A stretch of DNA of 64,000 nucleotides from Octopus vulgaris (Eukaryota): positions 39,556,001 to 39,620,000 of the forward strand of contig OX597823.1 in the NCBI GenBank assembly GCA_951406725.2, given 5' to 3'. The position numbers and the translations under genes were made by a program. Shown in pieces: positions 8,816 through 58,129 of the stretch. Within the stretch, counting starts at the first letter, position 1; every line of letters starts with the position of its first letter. Under the pieces are notes generated by a model. It ran no database searches. It saw only the letters and a list, made by a program, of their open reading frames with translations, and had not been told where the DNA came from.

Positions 8816-9645
8816 ATATCAATAATCAACATGGAAACCCAAGAAACTCACGATTTACGACAAACAATCCCATACTTCCTGAATGTCTCAATAAACAGAA
8901 GATGGGAAGAAGAGAGAACCTTTAGACAGCGAAATAAGTACAAAGAACATGAACCATCCCCTCACCTACGTGGAAAACAGAATACCAGAAACAGAAAATG
9001 GAAACACAATAATACAATTCCTTTTTTAGGGAGAAAATACCACAATCGCGAACCAAACCCGACGCAACAGAAAGTTTTAATGAGTACACAGCATATATAA
9101 GCCCAAAGATCATAAATTTGTCAAATAGAAACCTCAAAAAGAATTAATCTCCTATTGAAAGGTTTCAAATTTACACCGACACCCACCCCTAATCTCACTG
9201 AACTAAAAGCTGATATGGAGCATTCCAACCACCACCTCCAGCTTATAGAAATCTTCGGTAATAAGGATATAAATGACGTATCAATTATCAGAAATAAATC
9301 CCACTTCATCTACTACAAGGGGAATGACAAACATTTAGACTCATGTATAGACACACGTTCGAAATATCCCATAAGAACCTGTAAATGCAAACAAAACCTT
9401 CGTGAAGAAGAAAAGGAACCCTTACTAACACGGAAGGATGACAATTCAGTCATCCTAAAAGAAGTCGATAAGAGAGGGGTGAAAGTAATCATGGACAAAG
9501 ACTACTATAAAAATGAAATATTGGAAATTCTAACAGACCAAACGTACTACAAGCGAAAACCAAGACATCCGGAAAAAGTAATAGTGAATAAAATCAAAAT
9601 ATTAATTAATGAATACCAAGATTCCTTCATAGACGAGGAGAAAGA
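8815..9645 (+). mobile_element. Penelope-like retroelement, N-terminal RT region relic
   Basis: KIINLS..KGFKFTPTP and NLREEEKEPLLTRKDDNSVILKEVDKRGVKVIMDKDYY (like NLSxEERxALxxLxxDxxIIIKPADKGGAVVIMDKxDY). Confidence 0.8.
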
Positions 9646-9659
9646 TATATATATATATA

Positions 9660-9812
9660 TTTCTCTCCTTGTTTTTTCTGTGTCCCTTTCTGTAGAAGAG
9701 CGTAGACTCGAAACGTAAAATACTTTTTCTATTCCTGAGCGTTATACTAATACATCTGTTTGTTTTGTACACCACCTGTCATCGTCATTTGTTTTTTTCG
9801 TAAACTCTCCCT
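9660..9812 (+). mobile_element. Short (TA)n-flanked element with a variant hammerhead-like motif at 9687-9720
   Basis: ttt CTGTAGA a gag-cgtaga-ctc GAA ACGT A aaa. A related 3' fragment lies inverted at 10996-11073. Confidence 0.55.
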
Positions 9813-12496: not shown

Positions 12497-12688
12497 GTGG
12501 AGGCGCAATGGCCCAGTGGTTAGGGCAGCGGACTCGCGGTCGGAGGATCGCAGTTTCGATTCCCAGACCGGGCGTTGTGTGTGTTTATTGAGCGAAAACA
12601 CCTAAAGCTCCACGAGGCTCCGGCAGGAGGTGGTGGCGATCCCTGCTGTACTCTTTCGCCACAACTTTCTTTCACTCTTTCTTCTGTT
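12497..12688 (+). mobile_element. SINE family A head and body, joined to a PLE
   Basis: GTGGAGGCGCAATGGCCCAGTGG..GTTTCGATTCC head. Confidence 0.85.
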
Positions 12689-15490
12689 GCTAAAAAAGTA
12701 CTAAGAAATATTAATAATGAAATTAGGGAAATTACTGGGCTTCAACAATGGAATAACAGTTTTACTGTATTAGTTTGGTTTAAGAATATCGGGAATAAGA
12801 ATAAGGCTAAATTAATCCACTTTGATATTATAGACGTTTATCCCTCTGTATCTAGATCGCTGCTTGATAAAGCTATTGAATTTGCTAAATTATATGTTGA
12901 TATTGACCCTATAAACCTAGATTTTATCAGGCATGCGAGGAAAACACTATTGTTTAGTAAAGGATTAGCATGGGTAAAAAAGTCGCATAGTGACAAACTA
13001 AATGATGTATCTATGGGGTCATATGATAGTGCTGATGTCTTTGATCTTGTGGGTTTATTTATATTAAACACATTGAGATATAGATACCCGGCTCGCTCAT
13101 GGCAATGGCCTATACCGTGATGACGGTTTAGGTATTTCTCTTGATAGAGTTAGGAAGCAACTACTTTCTATCCTCAATCAAACTACAGTGGCTACTAATC
13201 TCTGTATTGTTGATTATTTAGATGTTTCCCTAAATTTAAACTCGTACGAGGGGCGTTCAATAAGTAATGCCCCTGACCCACTTCCCATAGCAGTAGAGCA
13301 ACGAAACTTGGCACAGTTATTAGTCTTTTTCTACATAGGAACCACCCAGAGTTACGCATTTCTCCCATCGTTTGATGCGGCTCTGGAGACCGTTTTTGTA
13401 GAAGAACCCAGCTTGGTCCTCCAACCTCAACGTGACTTCAGAAATCAAGGCTGCATCATCTGGGAAATGCTTTCCTTTCAAAAACAACTTCATGATTGGG
13501 AAGAGGTGAAAATCAGAGGGTACAAGGTCAGGAAAGTAGGGGGGATGGGGAGGAGTTCATAGCCATACGCCTGTGCTTCTGATCTGGCGACAAGCGAGTT
13601 GTGGACCGGAGAGTTGTCCTGCAGGAGGAGGATGCCTTTGTTGATCTTGCCCCGCCTCTTAATTTTGATAACTTCTCTTAATTTCCTCAAAAGTGAAGCA
13701 TAATAGGCTCCTGCAATTGTGGTACCCTTTGCCAGGAAATCTGTCATCACTACTCCGTCCTGGTCCCAGAAGACTGTGAGCATGACCTTGCCAGCGGAGG
13801 GCTGCACCCTTGCCTTCTTTGGAGGGGGTTAGTCACGGTGCTTCCACTGCATTGACTGGACTTTGGTCTCTGGATCATCGTGATGGACCCAGGTTTCATC
13901 CTGTGTAATCAGTCTTTTGAAAAATTTTGACTCATCTTCTTGGCACATCTCCAAATTCACCCTCGAGCACTCGACGCGTTCTTGCTTCTAGAAAGGCGTG
14001 AGCAACCTGGAAATCCATCTGGCAGACACCTTTTGCATATGCAAATGGTCATGAATGATAGTTTCCACAGACCCGGTACTAATCTTGACCTCATGGGCTA
14101 TTTGGCGAATAATTATGCGTCGATCTTCCAAAATGGCAGCCTCAACTTGACGGACAGATGCCTCATCAATGGCAGAAGGGGGCGACCAGATCTGGGAGCT
14201 GTTTCCACAGAGTTCCGACCATGTTTGAATTCACGATGCCAGCGTTTTACAAGGTCATATGATGGGGCATCATCACCATAAGTTACTTTCATTTCATCAA
14301 AAGTCTCCCGTGGTGTGCGTCCTTTCAAATACAAAAACTGGATCACTGCTCGACACTCAACAGGCTCCATTTCACACTTGACTCGGTTCAAACACCTGTA
14401 AATCAGAAACCACAATTAATTCAGAGCTGTAATTTGCTACTTACTCTATAGAGATATAAATAATTGCACATGCAAAATTTCAGCTAGATCAAACAACTGC
14501 AAGTGGGTCAGAGGCATTACTTATTGAACGTCCCTCGTATAAACCTTTCCATAAACCCAATGAGAAACTCGCACATATACATAAACAGACGCGTCACTCT
14601 CCTGTAATATTTAAAAACCCGGTAGTTATTATTAGTGACAGGGTGTCTAATCTCTCTTCTTCCAAAGAAATTTTCGAGTAAGTTGCCCCGTATTATAACA
14701 AGGCCCTAGCCAATAGTGACTTCAAAGATAAATTAATATATAGTCCCTCTAATAATAAGCAAAATATTAATAATAGATCTAGTGGCATCAAAGATAAAGT
14801 AGTACTTAACCACTCTAGTATTAATCAGGATAATAAGAAACCTAAACATAGGCCAAGGAAAATTATTTTCTTCGCCCCTCCCTTAATATAAAATCTAAAA
14901 GATTCCTGTTACTCTTAGACAAACACTTTCCAGCTACTCACATGTACAGAAAAATATTCAATAGGCGTTCTGTGAAATTATCATATAACTGCTGCCCCAA
15001 TATGAAGAGTATTATTACACGTGGTCAACACCAAGAATCTGAATCCAGCTGCAACTGTCGCGACCCAGGGTCCTGTGAACTTGACCAACGATATAAACTA
15101 AATCTATCATATATGAGGCAGAAATTACTGTAACCCTAAATAATAATACAACTGATAAGAAGAACTATATTGGATTATGGGAAGGTGAATTTTAAAATCG
15201 CTATGTCAATCACATAGCCTCCTTCCGACATAGGGACAAAAGTAAAGCTTACTACGTTGGTTACCTACGTGTGGACTTTGAAAGATAACGAAAGACAGCA
15301 TGTAATTAAATGGAAAGTAATTGAGAAAGCCACACCTTATGTGAATGGATCGAATAAATGTAGACTTTGTTTGGCTGAACGAGCGCAGATCCTGTTCAGA
15401 TCTATGATTCTTAAGCCTCTTAAACTCCAGGTCAGAAATTTTCAGTGGTTGCATGCATATGTATAAATATATTTTGGAGAATTGGAAAAC
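12689..15490 (+). mobile_element. Penelope-like retroelement (RT plus C-terminal GIY-YIG endonuclease, Naiad-like), 5' truncated and split by a mariner
   Basis: FDIIDVYPSV, DVSMGSYDSADVFDLVGL, GLYRDDGL, VDYLDVSLNL|YKPFHKPN, KIFNRRSVKLSYNCCPNM, CNCRDPGSC, NYIGLWEGEF-x-NRYVNH, KWKVIEKATPYVNGSNKCRLCLAE. Several frameshifts. The Naiad assignment is inference. Confidence 0.9.
13247..14537 (-). mobile_element. Full-length (1291 bp) mariner DD34D transposon, irritans-like; transposase pseudogene at about 13320-14370
   Basis: TIRs cgaggggcgttcaataagtaatgcc / ggcattacttattgaacgtccctcg with TA duplication at 13245 and 14538. Motifs WISRLL, TQDETWVHH, KVMLTVFWD, LQDNSPVH, PDLVPSDFHLF, with stops and frameshifts. 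Confidence 0.95.
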
Positions 15491-39519: not shown

Positions 39520-40563
39520 TTGGGTTGGCAACTAAGTCCCCGCCGTTTTTTTTTTTAATTTGGAATTAATTGCGTTTTTAAACTTTGGAATTTATTTTTT
39601 TCGAGAATTCTATTTTTGAATCATTTTGGAATCTATTTTGCTTTTTTTCTCTAGTTAATTTTAGTTAATTTTTGTTTATTAAAATGGAATGTCAAGTTAA
39701 AAAAATCGAGCATTTTCGACACCTTCTTTTTGCTTTTAATCAAGATTCTAAGGCCGCAAAAGCTGCTCACGACATTTGTGATGTGTATGGAGAGGGTGCA
39801 ATAGCTGAAAGAACCGCTCGTGATTGGTATGCCAAGTTCAAAACTGGAAATTTTGCCCTCGAAGACGCACCTCATTCTGGCTGTCCAGTTGAGTTCGATA
39901 AAGAGCGATTAAACCAGCTTTTGCACGAAAATTCTTGTCAAACGACGAAGAAACTGGCAGAGAAAATGGAATGCTCCCACACTGCTATAGAGAAGTATCT
40001 TCACTTGATGGGAAAGGTTCAGAAGTATGGAACATGGGTTCCGCATACTTTAAGTGACAACAACAAAAATCAACAAGCCACAATCTCCGCTGGTTTGCTT
40101 GCTCGTCAACGGTCAACGCGGAACTCTATGTTCAATAGATGGAACGACTCAACACGGCTATTCCAGAGAAAAGACCTCATAGGCAGCATGGAGTTCTTCT
40201 GCTACACGACAACGCCCGCCATCATATCACCAATATGACCAAGGAAGCCATTCAAACGCATGGCTGGGAAGTGCTGCCACACCCACCGTACTCTCCTGAT
40301 TTGGCACCAACTGATTTCCACCTCTTTCTATCTCTTTCAAATGCTATGCGCGGAGTTTTCGTTCAATACTAATGCAGAATTGAGAGCTTGGTTGGATCAA
40401 TTTTTCGAGTCGAAATCAGATGATTTCTATCAACAAGGTATTGAAAATCTTACTGAACGTTGGGAAGAAGTTGTAAACAACAAGGATGAATACATTATTG
40501 ATTAATTAGTTGTTAGTTTTTATTAAATCTTTTAAAAAATTTAAATAAAAAAAAAAAACGGCA
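39520..40563 (+). mobile_element. Mariner transposon with an internal deletion; transposase pseudogene at 39684-40505
   Basis: TA-ttgggttggcaactaagt TIR; MECQVKKIEHFRHLL, WVPHTL, LLHDNARHH, HPPYSPDLAPTDFHLF. The first catalytic Asp region is missing. Confidence 0.92.
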
Positions 40564-44509: not shown

Positions 44510-46419
44510 TGTTTAACTCTTCAAATCCTGAAAACTGACTGCAGTCATCCATAGCCCCAGAACCAGAAAAATCATCAGGGTCATCAATACTGTTCGAAGT
44601 GTCACAATCTTCAAACAGAACGTCATCTTCTGTGCCATCTATTGCATTACTGATGCCACATTTTTAAAAAGGTTTTACTACTACTTCAGTTTTCACAGCG
44701 TTCCATGATCTCAAGACCCACTCGCACACTCGCACACCTGAGCAATTATTAGCCTTTTCAAACGACCTGTTGGTGTTAGGTCATGGTCCTTGGCTCTCAT
44801 CCCCTGATTCCACTCGTCTTTCATAACTGCCTTAAAAAGCTTGTTGATTGATACGTCCAGTGGTTGTAATTGGCTTGTTAAACCACCAAGGATCACTGCC
44901 ACTTTCGTTTTCATTTTCTGCACCCTTTCTTTAATAACCATTGTTTTGTGGGCACGAAACTGGTCCCACACAAGAAGGGATGGTTTTTTTAAGGAGGCCA
45001 CCAGAACGCCTTGTAGAGATCTTATCTAGCCATAGCTTCATTCCTTCCTCATCTATCCACTCCTTTAGGTGGAGGTGAACAAAAGTTCCACGTGGAATTT
45101 TCTCTTTTGGTAAAGTTTTTCTTTTGAAAATAAGCAACGGTGGCAGTTTTGTTCCATCAGTGCAACACGATAGTACTGCAGTATAATGGGTTTTCTCATG
45201 TCCAGATGTCTTTACACTTACGGTTTTGGACACTTTAACATCCACTGTTCTAGTTGATACCACATCACACGTTAGTGACACCCCATCCATGTTTCCGATC
45301 TGATCCAGTTCGTAGTCAGTCTCTTTTCTTGCACTGATTATGAACCTGTGAAATTAGATTATTTTGTTATCATAATCTTCAGGCATATTTTGTGCCATTC
45401 TTGGTTCTATTCTCCTTGCTAGTCCGTGCCTCTTCATAAATCTGTAACACCAGCTTGATGTGCCACGAAAATCATCCAGACCTCGTGCTGCTGCCCTCAG
45501 TTTTGATTCATTAATAATAATTTTTATTGATACTGCAAGGCCCGAATTTCCCTCTGCAACTATCCACTCCTTCATCTCTTGCTCCAGTTCTGACCACCTA
45601 GCTGCAGGTTACGTTTAAGTCTTGATGTAGACTTCAACAAATCCTCAACAGTAGCGGATCATTTTTGAAGTTGGCGGTGCTCCAAATGCCACCCTGCAGC
45701 TCTGTTGCCATATTTATTCACTTGTAGCTTGTAACCGATTGTGTAAGAGTATCTTCTGCTTGAGATTACCATAATAAGGTTTGTGCTAAAAATTTTAAAG
45801 CTTCTGAAGTTACGGATCACTCCTAACGTCAGCAGGCCCAGGTTTGAACTGGTTTAAGTCCATGGCTTTCAGAGATCAAGGAGGAAGCTATGTTGCTGTC
45901 TGAACACAACGCATTTCATCACAGAGAGTAAGTGATGACTGAACGCAACATGTTTCATGTCAGAAAGTGAATAAGTGATTACGATAGTATTGTTATTAAT
46001 ATTTGCTTATAAATCCTTTTAACATACCACAGTTTTACTTCTTTCCTCATTTAATAATGTTCCCTTAAAGTCAGGTTGTTTGAAGAGAGTAAAAAAATAC
46101 CAGCAATATAGACACACAGGTAAAAATATCACCCGTCAGTTGCCTCGTCTAACATACACTGCCTATATGGGAATGAATTCTTGTGATTTCAAAATTTTTT
46201 ATGATATTATACTTTGGTTTATTTACTACTTTAACAAAGTATAACTTATACACTTCACTGAGCGGTCATATATAGGGGTTCAGATTTCTGTCTAGCATAG
46301 ATAATTTTTCTCTGGGGATATGCCTGTGAAAACTGAAACCTTCGGCCTCCAGGACGTATGGTAGATTTTCGAGATTAATTTTAGGAAAAAAGGAGCATCT
46401 TCAACGCTAGGAAATACGG
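44510..46419 (-). mobile_element. pogo-superfamily transposon relic (POGK-like transposase, CENP-B HTH plus DDE_1); pseudogene at about 44510-45772
   Basis: WCYRFMKRHGL, IGNMD, KTSGHEKTHYTAVLSCCTDGTKLPPLLIFKRK, LLVWDQFRAH, GGLTSQLQPLDVSINK, KCGISNAIDGTEDD. Frameshifted. TIR-like ccgtatttcc at 46410-46419 on the minus strand. Confidence 0.9.
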
Positions 46420-54975: not shown

Positions 54976-55045
<70 letters not shown>

Positions 55046-55048
<3 letters not shown>

Positions 55049-55298
55049 CGGAGATGTACTTGCATAACAAGTGTTTTGATCTGAGATCGTATGCTGAAAC
55101 GAAAATAATTGCAGCGTGGCAGGTGTTTGTAAGCCATTTAAGAAACACACAAAAGCCGTTCGATTCACTTCAACATTTAAGTTTAATTTGTCAAAATATT
55201 TTCGTCGCTTTAAGACCGCGACCTGTTCACTGACAAAAATCCGTGCAGCATCTGTGTGTTTCTTAAATGGCTTACAAACACCTTCCACGCTGCAATTG
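55046..55298 (-). mobile_element. Short (TA)n-flanked ribozyme element with a 45-bp inverted duplication (55107-55151 / 55253-55297)
   Basis: aattgcagcgtggcaggtgtttgtaagccatttaagaaacacaca and its reverse complement, with one mismatch. Confidence 0.75.
55187..55237 (-). ncRNA. Type I hammerhead ribozyme motif, G3-C8 variant
   Basis: Minus strand: tttgtca GTGAACA g gtcgc-ggtcttaaa-gcgac GAA AATATT T tgacaaa. 7-bp stem I, 5-bp stem II, palindromic stem III. Confidence 0.75.
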
Positions 55299-55299
55299 T

Positions 55300-55375
<76 letters not shown>

Positions 55376-56810: not shown

Positions 56811-58129
56811 CGAGGAGAAGTAAAAATTATCCACATTTTTACCATAACATCCGCACTTTCACCAAACCTTTATTATTGTCCCATTGCCTTCTGTGCATGC
56901 GTTCTTATAGTTGGTATTATTGTGGTCACGTGATCGAAGTTTGAGCCCGATCGTGCTTTTTTTTCTTTCTGGTTTTTATAAGCATGGCCGCTCCACTAGC
57001 AATATGCACCAAAGAAGAACAAAGAGCAGTGATCAGATTTCTCTTGTCGGTAGGTGTGTCAGGTGCTGAAATTAATCGGAGGCTTTTAGAACAATACGGG
57101 CACAATGCACTACCGCGTAGAAGTGTGTATGAGTAGATCGAGAAGTTTAAAAGTGGCCGGACAAGCCTGACACATGGAGAGGGAGCAAGACACACGTCAA
57201 TTTCCAGCACTGGCCAGAAGATTCAGCAAGCTCGAGAGATGGTAATGGTAAACCGGCGAGTTATCATCGTAGAGGTAGCTCATTCTCTGCAGATTTGTCA
57301 TGGTTCTGCCTATCAAATCATCCACATTGAGCTCGTCTTCCATAAAGTCTGTGCAAGATGGGTGCCAAGAGAGCTTACTGTAGAGCACACACGCAAACGT
57401 CATAAGATCTGCCCACGTTTACTCGATCGCTGCAACAATGAGGGCGAGAAATTTTTGAGCAGAATAGTCACACATGCTACGTGGGTTCATCATTATGAGG
57501 CAAAATCCAAAAGACAGAGTATGGAGTGGAAACATTCTGGCTCACCAGCGCCGAACAAATTTAAGACTCATTCCTCCTCGGGAAAGGTGGTGCTAACCCT
57601 GTTTTGGGACTCAAAAGGACCTGTACTGGAAGACTACCTTGGAAAATGGGTGTACGATTAACAGTGCAAGATACAGTGCTTTGCTGGCCAACAAACTGAA
57701 TCTAGCAATTCGCACCAAACGCCGAAACCTATTGTCGAAGAAAGTTTTGTTGTTGCATAACAATGCACGCCCACAGACGGCCGCCCAAACCGTTGAAACC
57801 ATAAACCAATTGGGTTTTAAGATGCTGGAAGACCCTGTTTACAGCCCAGATCTCGACCCTTCCGACTATCATATCTTTGGATCCATCAAAGATGGTTTAC
57901 GAGATCGTCGATTTCCTACGGATGAAGATGTGAAGGAAACGGTGCATAAATGGTTGCACGCCCAACAGAAAACTTTCTTCTTGGAGGGAATACTCAAGCT
58001 TGTGGACCGCTGGACCAAGTACATCGAAAAGGAATGAGAGATATAGAAAGATGATGTACTTGTTTATCCTCCGCTTTTTGTAAATACATTGAAAAAGCAA
58101 GCGTGCGTATAATTTTTGACTCTCCCTCG
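56811..58129 (+). mobile_element. Full-length (1319 bp) mariner, irritans-like; transposase pseudogene at 56984-58037
   Basis: TA-flanked TIRs cgaggagaagtaaaaattat / ataatttttgactctccctcg; EEQRAVIRFL, ARWVPREL, KVVLTLFWD, LLHNNARP, YSPDLDPSDYHIF. It has a stop, frameshifts and two lost catalytic Asp residues. Confidence 0.95.

What the first reader, a model, noticed from the sequence alone, without database searches (positions are those of the whole stretch)
55187..55237. Hammerhead with an inverted catalytic pair (G3-C8)
The minus strand reads tttgtca GUGAACA g gucgc(9 nt)gcgac GAA AAUAUU U ugacaaa. The canonical CUGANGA has become GUGAACA, so both partners of the C3-G8 tertiary Watson-Crick pair are swapped together. 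Stem I (7 bp), stem II (5 bp) and the palindromic stem III are perfect. A double transversion that restores pairing argues for selection on function. Standard CUGANGA searches would miss it. The cleavage triplet (UUU) is also atypical.
Basis: partly seen in the sequence, partly recalled or inferred. Interest (0 to 1): 0.85.

Follow-up and report, generated by a model that had tools for sequence, protein, structure and literature searches.

The report
Swapped-core hammerhead in a Penelope retrotransposon
Thousands of copies of one jumping gene in this animal genome carry a hammerhead-shaped RNA whose two paired core letters are swapped compared with its sister elements; it likely still cuts itself, which would make it a natural form of a swap so far found here only as a laboratory mutant.

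Summary
Confirmed. Window 55237-55187 (minus strand) is a minimal type I hammerhead motif with GUGAACA in place of CUGANGA. It lies in a 254-nt, 5'-truncated end of a young Penelope-like retrotransposon (RT plus C-terminal GIY-YIG), 57 nt upstream of the ORF start. G3-C8 is the family's master state: 7,728 of 8,494 genomic matches. Two related families in the same genome, found by protein or DNA homology, carry C3-G8 at the same place, with compensatory changes in stems I and II. Related elements from metagenomes carry C3-G8 or U3-A8, so G3-C8 is most likely derived. Subfamily differences avoid the stems and core. Papers show the laboratory G3-C8 swap partly rescues cleavage; natural U3-A8 is known. 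Nine searches found no natural G3-C8, but the largest survey (Lünse 2017) was not available. This scan noted G3-C8 motifs in Penelope-like tails of two other genomes. U17 is common in these hammerheads, not atypical; it may be what tolerates G3. Cleavage is untested, and this copy is probably inert. New variant of a known kind.

The parts
55047..55300 (-). Whole insertion: 5'-truncated end of a Penelope-like retrotransposon (family A), made of an inverted piece plus a direct pLTR end with tail
   Evidence: 2,412 first-look candidates in the genome; 25 of 30 top copies share the inverted-plus-direct layout
55253..55300 (+). Inverted 48-nt piece matching 55104-55151, starting at the family's fixed inner end; its length varies between copies, so it is not a terminal inverted repeat
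   Evidence: drives the long hairpin
55187..55237 (-). Minimal type I hammerhead motif with G3-C8 core
55231..55237 (-). Stem I, 5' strand
   Evidence: 208 of 210 letters conserved in 30 copies
55224..55230 (-). Core positions 3-9, GUGAACA (G3 = 55230, C8 = 55225)
55223..55223 (-). Extra G between positions 9 and 10.1, typical of Penelope-type hammerheads
   Evidence: Invariant in 9 of 9 rows; PMC4209133
55204..55222 (-). Stem II (5 bp, first pair G10.1-C11.1) with the variable 9-nt loop 55217-55209
55195..55203 (-). GAA (positions 12-14) and palindromic stem III AAUAUU (A15.1 to U16.1)
55194..55194 (-). U17; predicted cleavage between 55194 and 55193
   Evidence: U in 27 of 27 informative copies; cleavage itself not shown
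55187..55193 (-). Stem I, 3' strand
55047..55137 (-). First 30 codons of the element's ORF (ATG at 55137); the hammerhead is therefore in the 5' UTR and not coding
   Evidence: N-terminus 40% identical to sister family B
55047..55103 (-). About 56-nt 'tail' between the two fixed ends of the family
   Evidence: 30 of 30 top copies end within 4 nt of the same base; tail concept from PMC11167929
55303..55434 (.). (TA)n-rich microsatellite, target-site flank
55002..55046 (.). (TA)n microsatellite, target-site flank

Best explanation
This is the hammerhead motif in the terminal repeat of a young Penelope-like retrotransposon, with its core 3-8 pair swapped to G3-C8 across the whole family; it likely still self-cleaves slowly after U17, probably only as a dimer or with help from the element's protein. 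Shown: the host element, the position 57 nt before the ORF start, the family-wide G3-C8 state, C3-G8 in related families, and compensatory stem changes. Inferred: G3-C8 arose on the branch to this family and was kept by selection on the master element. The 3-8 pair is a structural Watson-Crick pair whose catalytic part is the 2'-OH of nucleotide 8, so a swap keeps the geometry. The 5' and 3' repeat copies of one transcript would pair through the AAUAUU palindrome to build stem III and trim the element RNA. U17 would be permissive, because G3 with C17 could form an inactive G3-C17 pair like the known C3-G17 trap. The copy in the window is a promoterless insertion by target-primed reverse transcription into (TA)n and is probably inert.
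For: Host element: longer copies run into an ORF with RT motifs and GIY-YIG (Pfam PF01541 25.5 bits, cutoff 22.6). A pLTR-hammerhead-ORF junction is seen in L090. Inverted 5' pieces in 25 of 30 copies, 8 clear 9-13-nt target duplications and 7 (TA)n sites. Master state: 7,728 of 8,494 matches; only 32 have C3 and 2 have C3-G8. Homologous swap: family B (RT 60% identical; sister, SH-aLRT 99 in a quick tree) has CUGAUGC in all 43 motif copies from 25 of 25 loci; family C has C3 in 29 of 30 and G8 in 28 of 30. The family A and C cores differ only at positions 3 and 8. A model built from family A alone finds family C in 5 of 7 loci at E below 0.03. The 3-8 pair holds in 9 of 9 rows (CG 6, GC 2, UA 1) and stem II is 97.8% paired with 4 of 5 pairs covarying. 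Subfamily-diagnostic sites: 0-4 of 42 in stems and core versus 10-16 of 68 in adjacent free positions, p 0.002-0.052 over six settings. Papers: the double mutant partly restores cleavage in a Penelope-like hammerhead, which needs the element's protein (PMC11167929); the G:C swap is the only rescuing double mutant of the CUGA region (PMC9901934); C3-G17 trap and better G3-C8 activity without C17 (PMC3884650; 'data not shown' there); 2'-OH of G8 as general acid (PMC6155905).
Against: No cleavage data. Laboratory G3-C8 gives only partial rescue, on top of the low activity of minimal hammerheads. Stem III is weak: closing it in the monomer costs 5.4 kcal/mol and the 6-bp self-duplex is only -0.2 kcal/mol. 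Hammerhead mutants did not affect insertion in vitro, and no RNA ends at the cleavage site were found in the anole data (PMC11167929); Naiad elements thrive without canonical hammerheads (PMC8557442). Going from C3-G8 to G3-C8 passes through a mismatched state, so the lineage tolerated a weak ribozyme for a time. Sister family B, with many intact ORFs, has C at position 9. In one search, 5-6 of the free sites lie in loop II and may stem from few events. The model missed family B (0 of 2) and L134, L135, L137. Outgroup rows L134, L135 and L137 came from a descriptor that required a 3-8 pair, so they are circular. Stem I is only 66.7% paired across families. The tree is the quick one, leaves the outgroups unresolved and lacks family C.
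Confidence: 0.7

Rival explanations
1. The fold is conserved but no longer cuts to any useful degree. It is kept as a structure: a binding or folding element for the element's protein, or a 5' UTR control element, which needs the 3-8 pair but not catalysis.
For: Catalytic mutants did not change insertion in vitro. Relatives tolerate other core changes: C9 in family B and L134, U15.1-A16.1 in L133. PMC4209133 itself leaves non-cleaving roles open.
Against: U4, G5, A6, G12, A13 and A14 are invariant in 9 of 9 rows, and H17 is never G. The 3-8 pair is described as forming in the active conformation rather than the ground state (PMC3884650), so keeping it points to catalysis.
Confidence: 0.2
2. 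A decaying relic: the ancestral hammerhead lost function, positions 3 and 8 changed by drift, and the restored pair is a coincidence amplified by thousands of copies of one master.
For: All 7,728 copies descend from few masters and are not independent. Per-copy decay at positions 3 and 8 (about 9% of matches altered) looks neutral.
Against: Against family C, the stem I closing pair, a stem II pair and the core pair all change on both sides and keep pairing. Subfamily changes avoid the 42 constrained positions.
Confidence: 0.08
3. Not a hammerhead: a chance look-alike inside a MITE-like hairpin element.
For: No Rfam hit. The 48-nt inverted repeat resembles terminal inverted repeats and dominates the fold.
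Against: The inverted piece varies in length between copies, the parent encodes RT and GIY-YIG, and related families have canonical cores at this position. 0 of 100 shuffles give a hit.
Confidence: 0.02

Closest known systems
Minimal type I hammerheads of Penelope-like elements (Cervera and De la Peña 2014, PMC4209133; Lünse et al. 2017, not available, known only through review PMC6765202)
   Same: Located in the pLTR; extra nucleotide between 9 and 10.1; G10.1-C11.1; short palindromic stem III; U17 frequent; mostly single, truncated genomic copies.
   Different: Core pair is G3-C8. None of the 56 representatives in Fig. S3 starts with G3; the covariant reported there is U3-A8. Stem I is longer (7 bp versus 4-5).
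PAc (Poseidon, Anolis) hammerhead, C3G/G8C double mutant (Frangieh et al. 2024, PMC11167929)
   Same: Same engineered pair in a Penelope-like hammerhead, with partial rescue; same tail architecture, with two fixed ends inside the ORF start.
   Different: There a laboratory control, here the natural master state. There the ORF starts at stem II; here it starts 57 nt after the cleavage site. The tail here is about 56 nt versus 30-40.
Natural hammerhead core variants (Perreault et al. 2011, PMC3088659)
   Same: Natural covariation at positions 3 and 8.
   Different: Section 8 reports U3-A8 only, a transition pair; G3-C8 needs two transversions.
Neptune/Nematis-type EN+ Penelope-like elements (as defined in Craig et al. 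2021, PMC8557442)
   Same: [quoted passage not shown]
   Different: Clade not placed against named reference sequences; not matched to any named family.

Membership tests
Hammerhead ribozyme (type I, minimal PLE form) | Three-way junction with stems I and II around the core | tested here: met
   covariation across families
Hammerhead ribozyme (type I, minimal PLE form) | Literal consensus C3 and G8 | tested here: not met
   G3 and C8 in 7,728 of 8,494 matches
Hammerhead ribozyme (type I, minimal PLE form) | Watson-Crick complementarity between positions 3 and 8 | tested here: met
   G-C in family A, C-G in families B and C
Hammerhead ribozyme (type I, minimal PLE form) | U4, G5, A6, A9, G12, A13, A14, A15.1-U16.1, H17 | tested here: met
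Hammerhead ribozyme (type I, minimal PLE form) | Stem III able to form (monomer or dimer) | tested here: inconclusive
   Palindromic, but monomer closure costs 5.4 kcal/mol and the self-duplex is -0.2 kcal/mol
Hammerhead ribozyme (type I, minimal PLE form) | Match to an Rfam hammerhead model | tested here: not met
   whether Rfam detects canonical minimal forms such as family C was not tested
Hammerhead ribozyme (type I, minimal PLE form) | Site-specific self-cleavage 3' of H17 | not testable with these tools
   Needs biochemistry; only contigs were available
EN+ Penelope-like retrotransposon | Single ORF with RT and C-terminal GIY-YIG | tested here: met
   GIY-YIG passes the Pfam cutoff. RT read from motifs (DK-S-G, SLYPSI, GGAIG, YVDD; labels partly recalled); Pfam RVT_1 gave no hit for P0001 and a sub-cutoff hit for P0002
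EN+ Penelope-like retrotransposon | pLTR-ORF partial tandems, inverted 5'-truncated copies, 3' tail, variable target-site duplication | tested here: met
Neptune/Nematis clades | CX2-5CxxC linker plus cysteines inside GIY-YIG | tested here: met
   Read from the translation against the definition
Neptune/Nematis clades | RT phylogeny with named reference elements | not tested
   No named references in hand; one search used unnamed relatives only
Non-LTR retrozyme | Non-coding head-to-tail tandem units, each with a hammerhead | tested here: not met
   Copies are dispersed and continue into an ORF; the one tandem examined (L061) is a duplication of surrounding DNA

The most novel reading that the evidence does not exclude
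An active natural G3-C8 hammerhead, fixed in a retrotransposon lineage with about 8,000 copies, that crossed a non-pairing intermediate because U17 was already in place (epistasis between positions 17 and 3). It would be one member of a wider, overlooked group of G3-C8 ribozymes in Penelope-like elements that CUGANGA-based surveys miss, and would mean that some elements scored as hammerhead-less carry one.
Probability: 0.35. Interest if true: 0.7.

Novelty: new variant of a known kind. Interest (0 to 1): 0.5.

Why it matters
The C3-G8 tertiary pair was established by crystal structures and laboratory swaps; here nature has made the same swap, with sister lineages as controls. Keeping a pair that belongs to the active conformation is comparative evidence that Penelope-type hammerheads are selected for catalysis, which is an open question: they cleave poorly in vitro and were dispensable for insertion in one assay. 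Families A (G3-C8, U17), B (C3-G8, C9, U17) and C (C3-G8, C17) give a ready natural series for testing core epistasis. In practice, descriptors should require a 3-8 pair rather than CUGANGA; about 8,000 motifs in this genome alone would otherwise be missed.

Tried and rejected
Rfam, whole window and 256-nt piece: only microsatellite and hairpin miRNA noise. MITE reading of the inverted repeat: rejected. Idea that the core is also coding: a frame is open through the motif in this copy, but the 8-nt-loop subfamily shifts it and the real ORF starts downstream. L061 as a full element: it is a local tandem duplication. L097 first looked like chance and proved to be family C. Sequencing runs: no RNA holder listed; 20 of 24 rows hold the stretch, under four organism codes. 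Four contig sets were laid and gave no information on cleavage ends or splicing. The careful tree did not finish; the quick tree was used. The first cross-family alignment had wrong bounds for family C and was redone. Of 13 metagenome loci, a motif was seen in L133, L134, L135, L137 and the weakly related L144, and none in the other 8. Earlier-findings look-ups by place and by sequence were empty. Two key papers were not held: Lünse et al. 2017 and Przybilski and Hammann 2007. Supplement file 1 of PMC4209133 could not be read, and part 3 of file 2 was not read; these may bear on whether natural G3-C8 is in print.

Full report
1. Observation. The sequence is as described: on the minus strand, stem I 55237-55231 with 55193-55187, core GUGAACA 55230-55224, an extra G, stem II of 5 bp with a 9-nt loop, GAA, the palindrome AAUAUU and U17 at 55194. 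Stems I and II appear in the predicted fold. The strong z-score of the 256-nt region (-10.8) comes from a 48-nt inverted repeat around the motif; the 66-nt piece alone has z -2.09. A descriptor open to any Watson-Crick 3-8 pair finds only this site in the window, 0 of 100 shuffles at these stem lengths and 1 of 100 at looser ones. Rfam does not report it.

2. What it sits in. The window is part of a 2.8-Gb genome. A protein labelled Octopus vulgaris by its source matches that genome at 100%, so it is likely that species. The 256 nt between two (TA)n tracts had 2,412 first-look candidates, of which 40 were scored. Of the 30 best loci, all end within 4 nt of the same base, 25 carry an inverted 5' piece of variable length, 28 show GUGAACA and 2 are cut before it. 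By my reading 8 of the 25 have clear 9-13-nt target duplications (the script's 11 include 3 TA-rich ones) and 7 lie in (TA)n. Walking upstream from a 25-mer with 497 exact matches led through about 1 kb of microsatellite-rich repeat into an ORF with RT motifs and a GIY-YIG domain. One copy holds 998 stop-free residues (Pfam GIY-YIG 25.5 bits). L089 and L090 show the pLTR running into the ORF; the ATG is 57 nt after U17. No copy intact from ATG to stop was seen among those fetched. Inverted truncated copies, a tail, (TA)n preference and a CX2-5CxxC linker are the marks of Neptune/Nematis-type Penelope-like elements in PMC8557442 (passages and introduction). The two fixed ends, about 35 and 91 nt into the ORF, fit the two internal RT start sites described in PMC11167929 (parts 1-2 of 4); that match is inference.

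3. G3-C8 is the master state. With positions 3 and 8 left open, an 18-mer has 8,494 matches (reversed control 1); 7,728 are G3-C8. Only 32 have C3: 28 C3-C8, 2 C3-U8 and 2 C3-G8. One of the two C3-G8 hits was inspected and belongs to another family; the other was not inspected. In 30 copies picked by the upstream 25-mer, G3 is present in 30, C8 in 28, and U17 in 27 of 27 with a letter there. The 9% of altered matches look like neutral decay after insertion.

4. The swap against relatives. Family B (RT 60% identical, many intact ORFs of about 1,310 residues) has at the same place CUGAUGC, an extra G, stem II GUCAC/GUGAC and U17, in all 43 motif copies from 25 of 25 loci; its N-terminus is 40% identical to family A's. 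Family C, older (1,103 exact 18-mers), has CUGAAGA with C3 in 29 of 30, G8 in 28 of 30 and C17 in 27 of 30. The cores of A and C differ only at 3 and 8; a stem II pair and the stem I closing pair also change on both sides. A covariance model built from family A alone recovers family C in 5 of 7 loci at E below 0.03 and L133 at 0.035, but misses family B (0 of 2), L134, L135 and L137. Among 13 metagenome loci with related RT, motifs were seen in L133, L135, L137 (C3-G8), L134 (U3-A8) and the weakly related L144. In a quick tree A and B are sisters (SH-aLRT 99), the outgroups are unresolved and family C is absent. By parsimony G3-C8 is derived. Over 9 rows the 3-8 pair holds in all, stem II is 97.8% paired, stem I 66.7%, and the whole structure 82.6% versus 64.2% in shuffles and 31-48% when slid. 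Three outgroup rows were picked by a descriptor that required the pair, and the rows are related, so these figures overstate the case; families B and C were found without that requirement.

5. Constraint within family A. Sites where several of the 30 copies share a second letter number 0-4 of 42 in stems and core and 10-16 of 68 in neighbouring free positions (Fisher p 0.002-0.052 over six settings). Five or six of the free sites are in loop II and may reflect few events, so this is moderate support.

6. Mechanism. Shown in papers: C3 and G8 form a Watson-Crick pair in the active conformation (PMC3884650 passages), and the general acid is proposed to be the 2'-OH of nucleotide 8 (PMC6155905 passages). 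Single mutants are dead and the double swap partly rescues in a Penelope-like hammerhead that needs the element's protein. In a full double-mutant scan the G:C swap was the only rescue in this region (PMC9901934 passages). Minimal hammerheads with palindromic stem III cleave weakly and as dimers (PMC4209133 parts 1-2 of 4; PMC6765202 passages). Inferred here: stem III cannot form well in a monomer, so cleavage would need the two pLTR copies of a tandem transcript or protein help, and would trim the element RNA 57 nt before the ATG. Also inferred: since C3-G17 traps an inactive fold and a G3-C8 variant was more active with G17 than C17 (data not shown in that paper), G3 would be trapped by C17. 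U17, already present in family B, L133, L134 and L135, would remove that trap. The window copy lacks the upstream pLTR and is probably not under selection. Against all this: no cleavage data, dispensability in one in vitro insertion assay, and relatives that tolerate other core changes.

7. What is known. Hammerheads in Penelope-like repeats, the extra nucleotide, the palindromic stem III and natural U3-A8 are in print. None of the 56 representatives in Fig. S3 of PMC4209133 begins with G3, and about 23 have U17 by my count of the PDF text, including UUU in Crassostrea gigas. Nine searches found G3-C8 only as a laboratory mutant. Lünse et al. 2017 and Przybilski and Hammann 2007 were not held, so absence from print is not established. 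The retrozyme preprint 10.64898/2026.07.22.740005 was read in part 1 of 5 only. Two earlier notes of this scan describe G3-C8 motifs behind Penelope-like RTs in other genomes; I did not test them, and they are not independent support.

8. Verdict. A real feature and a new natural variant of a known kind: interest 0.5; probability that it works as a slow, dimer- or protein-assisted hammerhead in the master element 0.7.

Noticed in passing
L112:5276-5323 (minus) and L108-L132: Sister family B has many intact ORFs of about 1,310 residues at 98-99% identity, so it is very young. Its hammerhead keeps C3-G8 but has C at the normally invariant position 9 and a non-palindromic stem III (AGAACU).
   Followed up: partly
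L133:4966-5017 and L134:2490-2537: Related elements from metagenomes carry other core variants: U15.1-A16.1 in L133, and U3-A8 with C9 in L134. This clade seems unusually free in core covariation.
   Followed up: partly
L044 (minus, about 2820 in reverse coordinates) and L074:2680: Two hammerhead-like motifs with a U3-A8 core and palindromic stem III, from another repeat in the same genome.
   Followed up: no
L006 and L058 (minus): A recurring minimal hammerhead-like motif with core CCGACGA (U4C), identical in two unrelated loci; probably another Penelope-like family.
   Followed up: no
L090:5700-5721; L112 reverse positions 30-36: Family A has a branch-point and acceptor-like signal about 13 nt before stem I, while families B and C have a donor-like GTAAGT 20-40 nt before the motif. 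Splicing was not shown; the difference is unexplained.
   Followed up: partly
window 9116-9715 and 12524-15463 (plus): Broken frames that read like RT and GIY-YIG pieces of other Penelope-like families (identified by eye, not by a family search).
   Followed up: no
window 39669-40502 and 57137-58034 (plus); 13323-14415 and 44714-45608 (minus): Broken frames resembling mariner-type and pogo-type transposases (labels recalled, not tested). No host exon was recognised near the finding.
   Followed up: no
window 5230 (plus) and 4259 (minus): A nearly identical CUGAUGA...GAAAC motif occurs twice in inverted orientation about 1 kb apart, with weak stems; possibly a decayed hammerhead of another element.
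   Followed up: no
protein P0117: A public gene model fuses about 150 residues of the family B RT to an F-box/leucine-rich-repeat protein: an exonised transposon piece or an annotation artefact.
   Followed up: no
L061:1-8029: A 3.45-kb tandem duplication of ordinary DNA that includes an older family A copy.
   Followed up: yes
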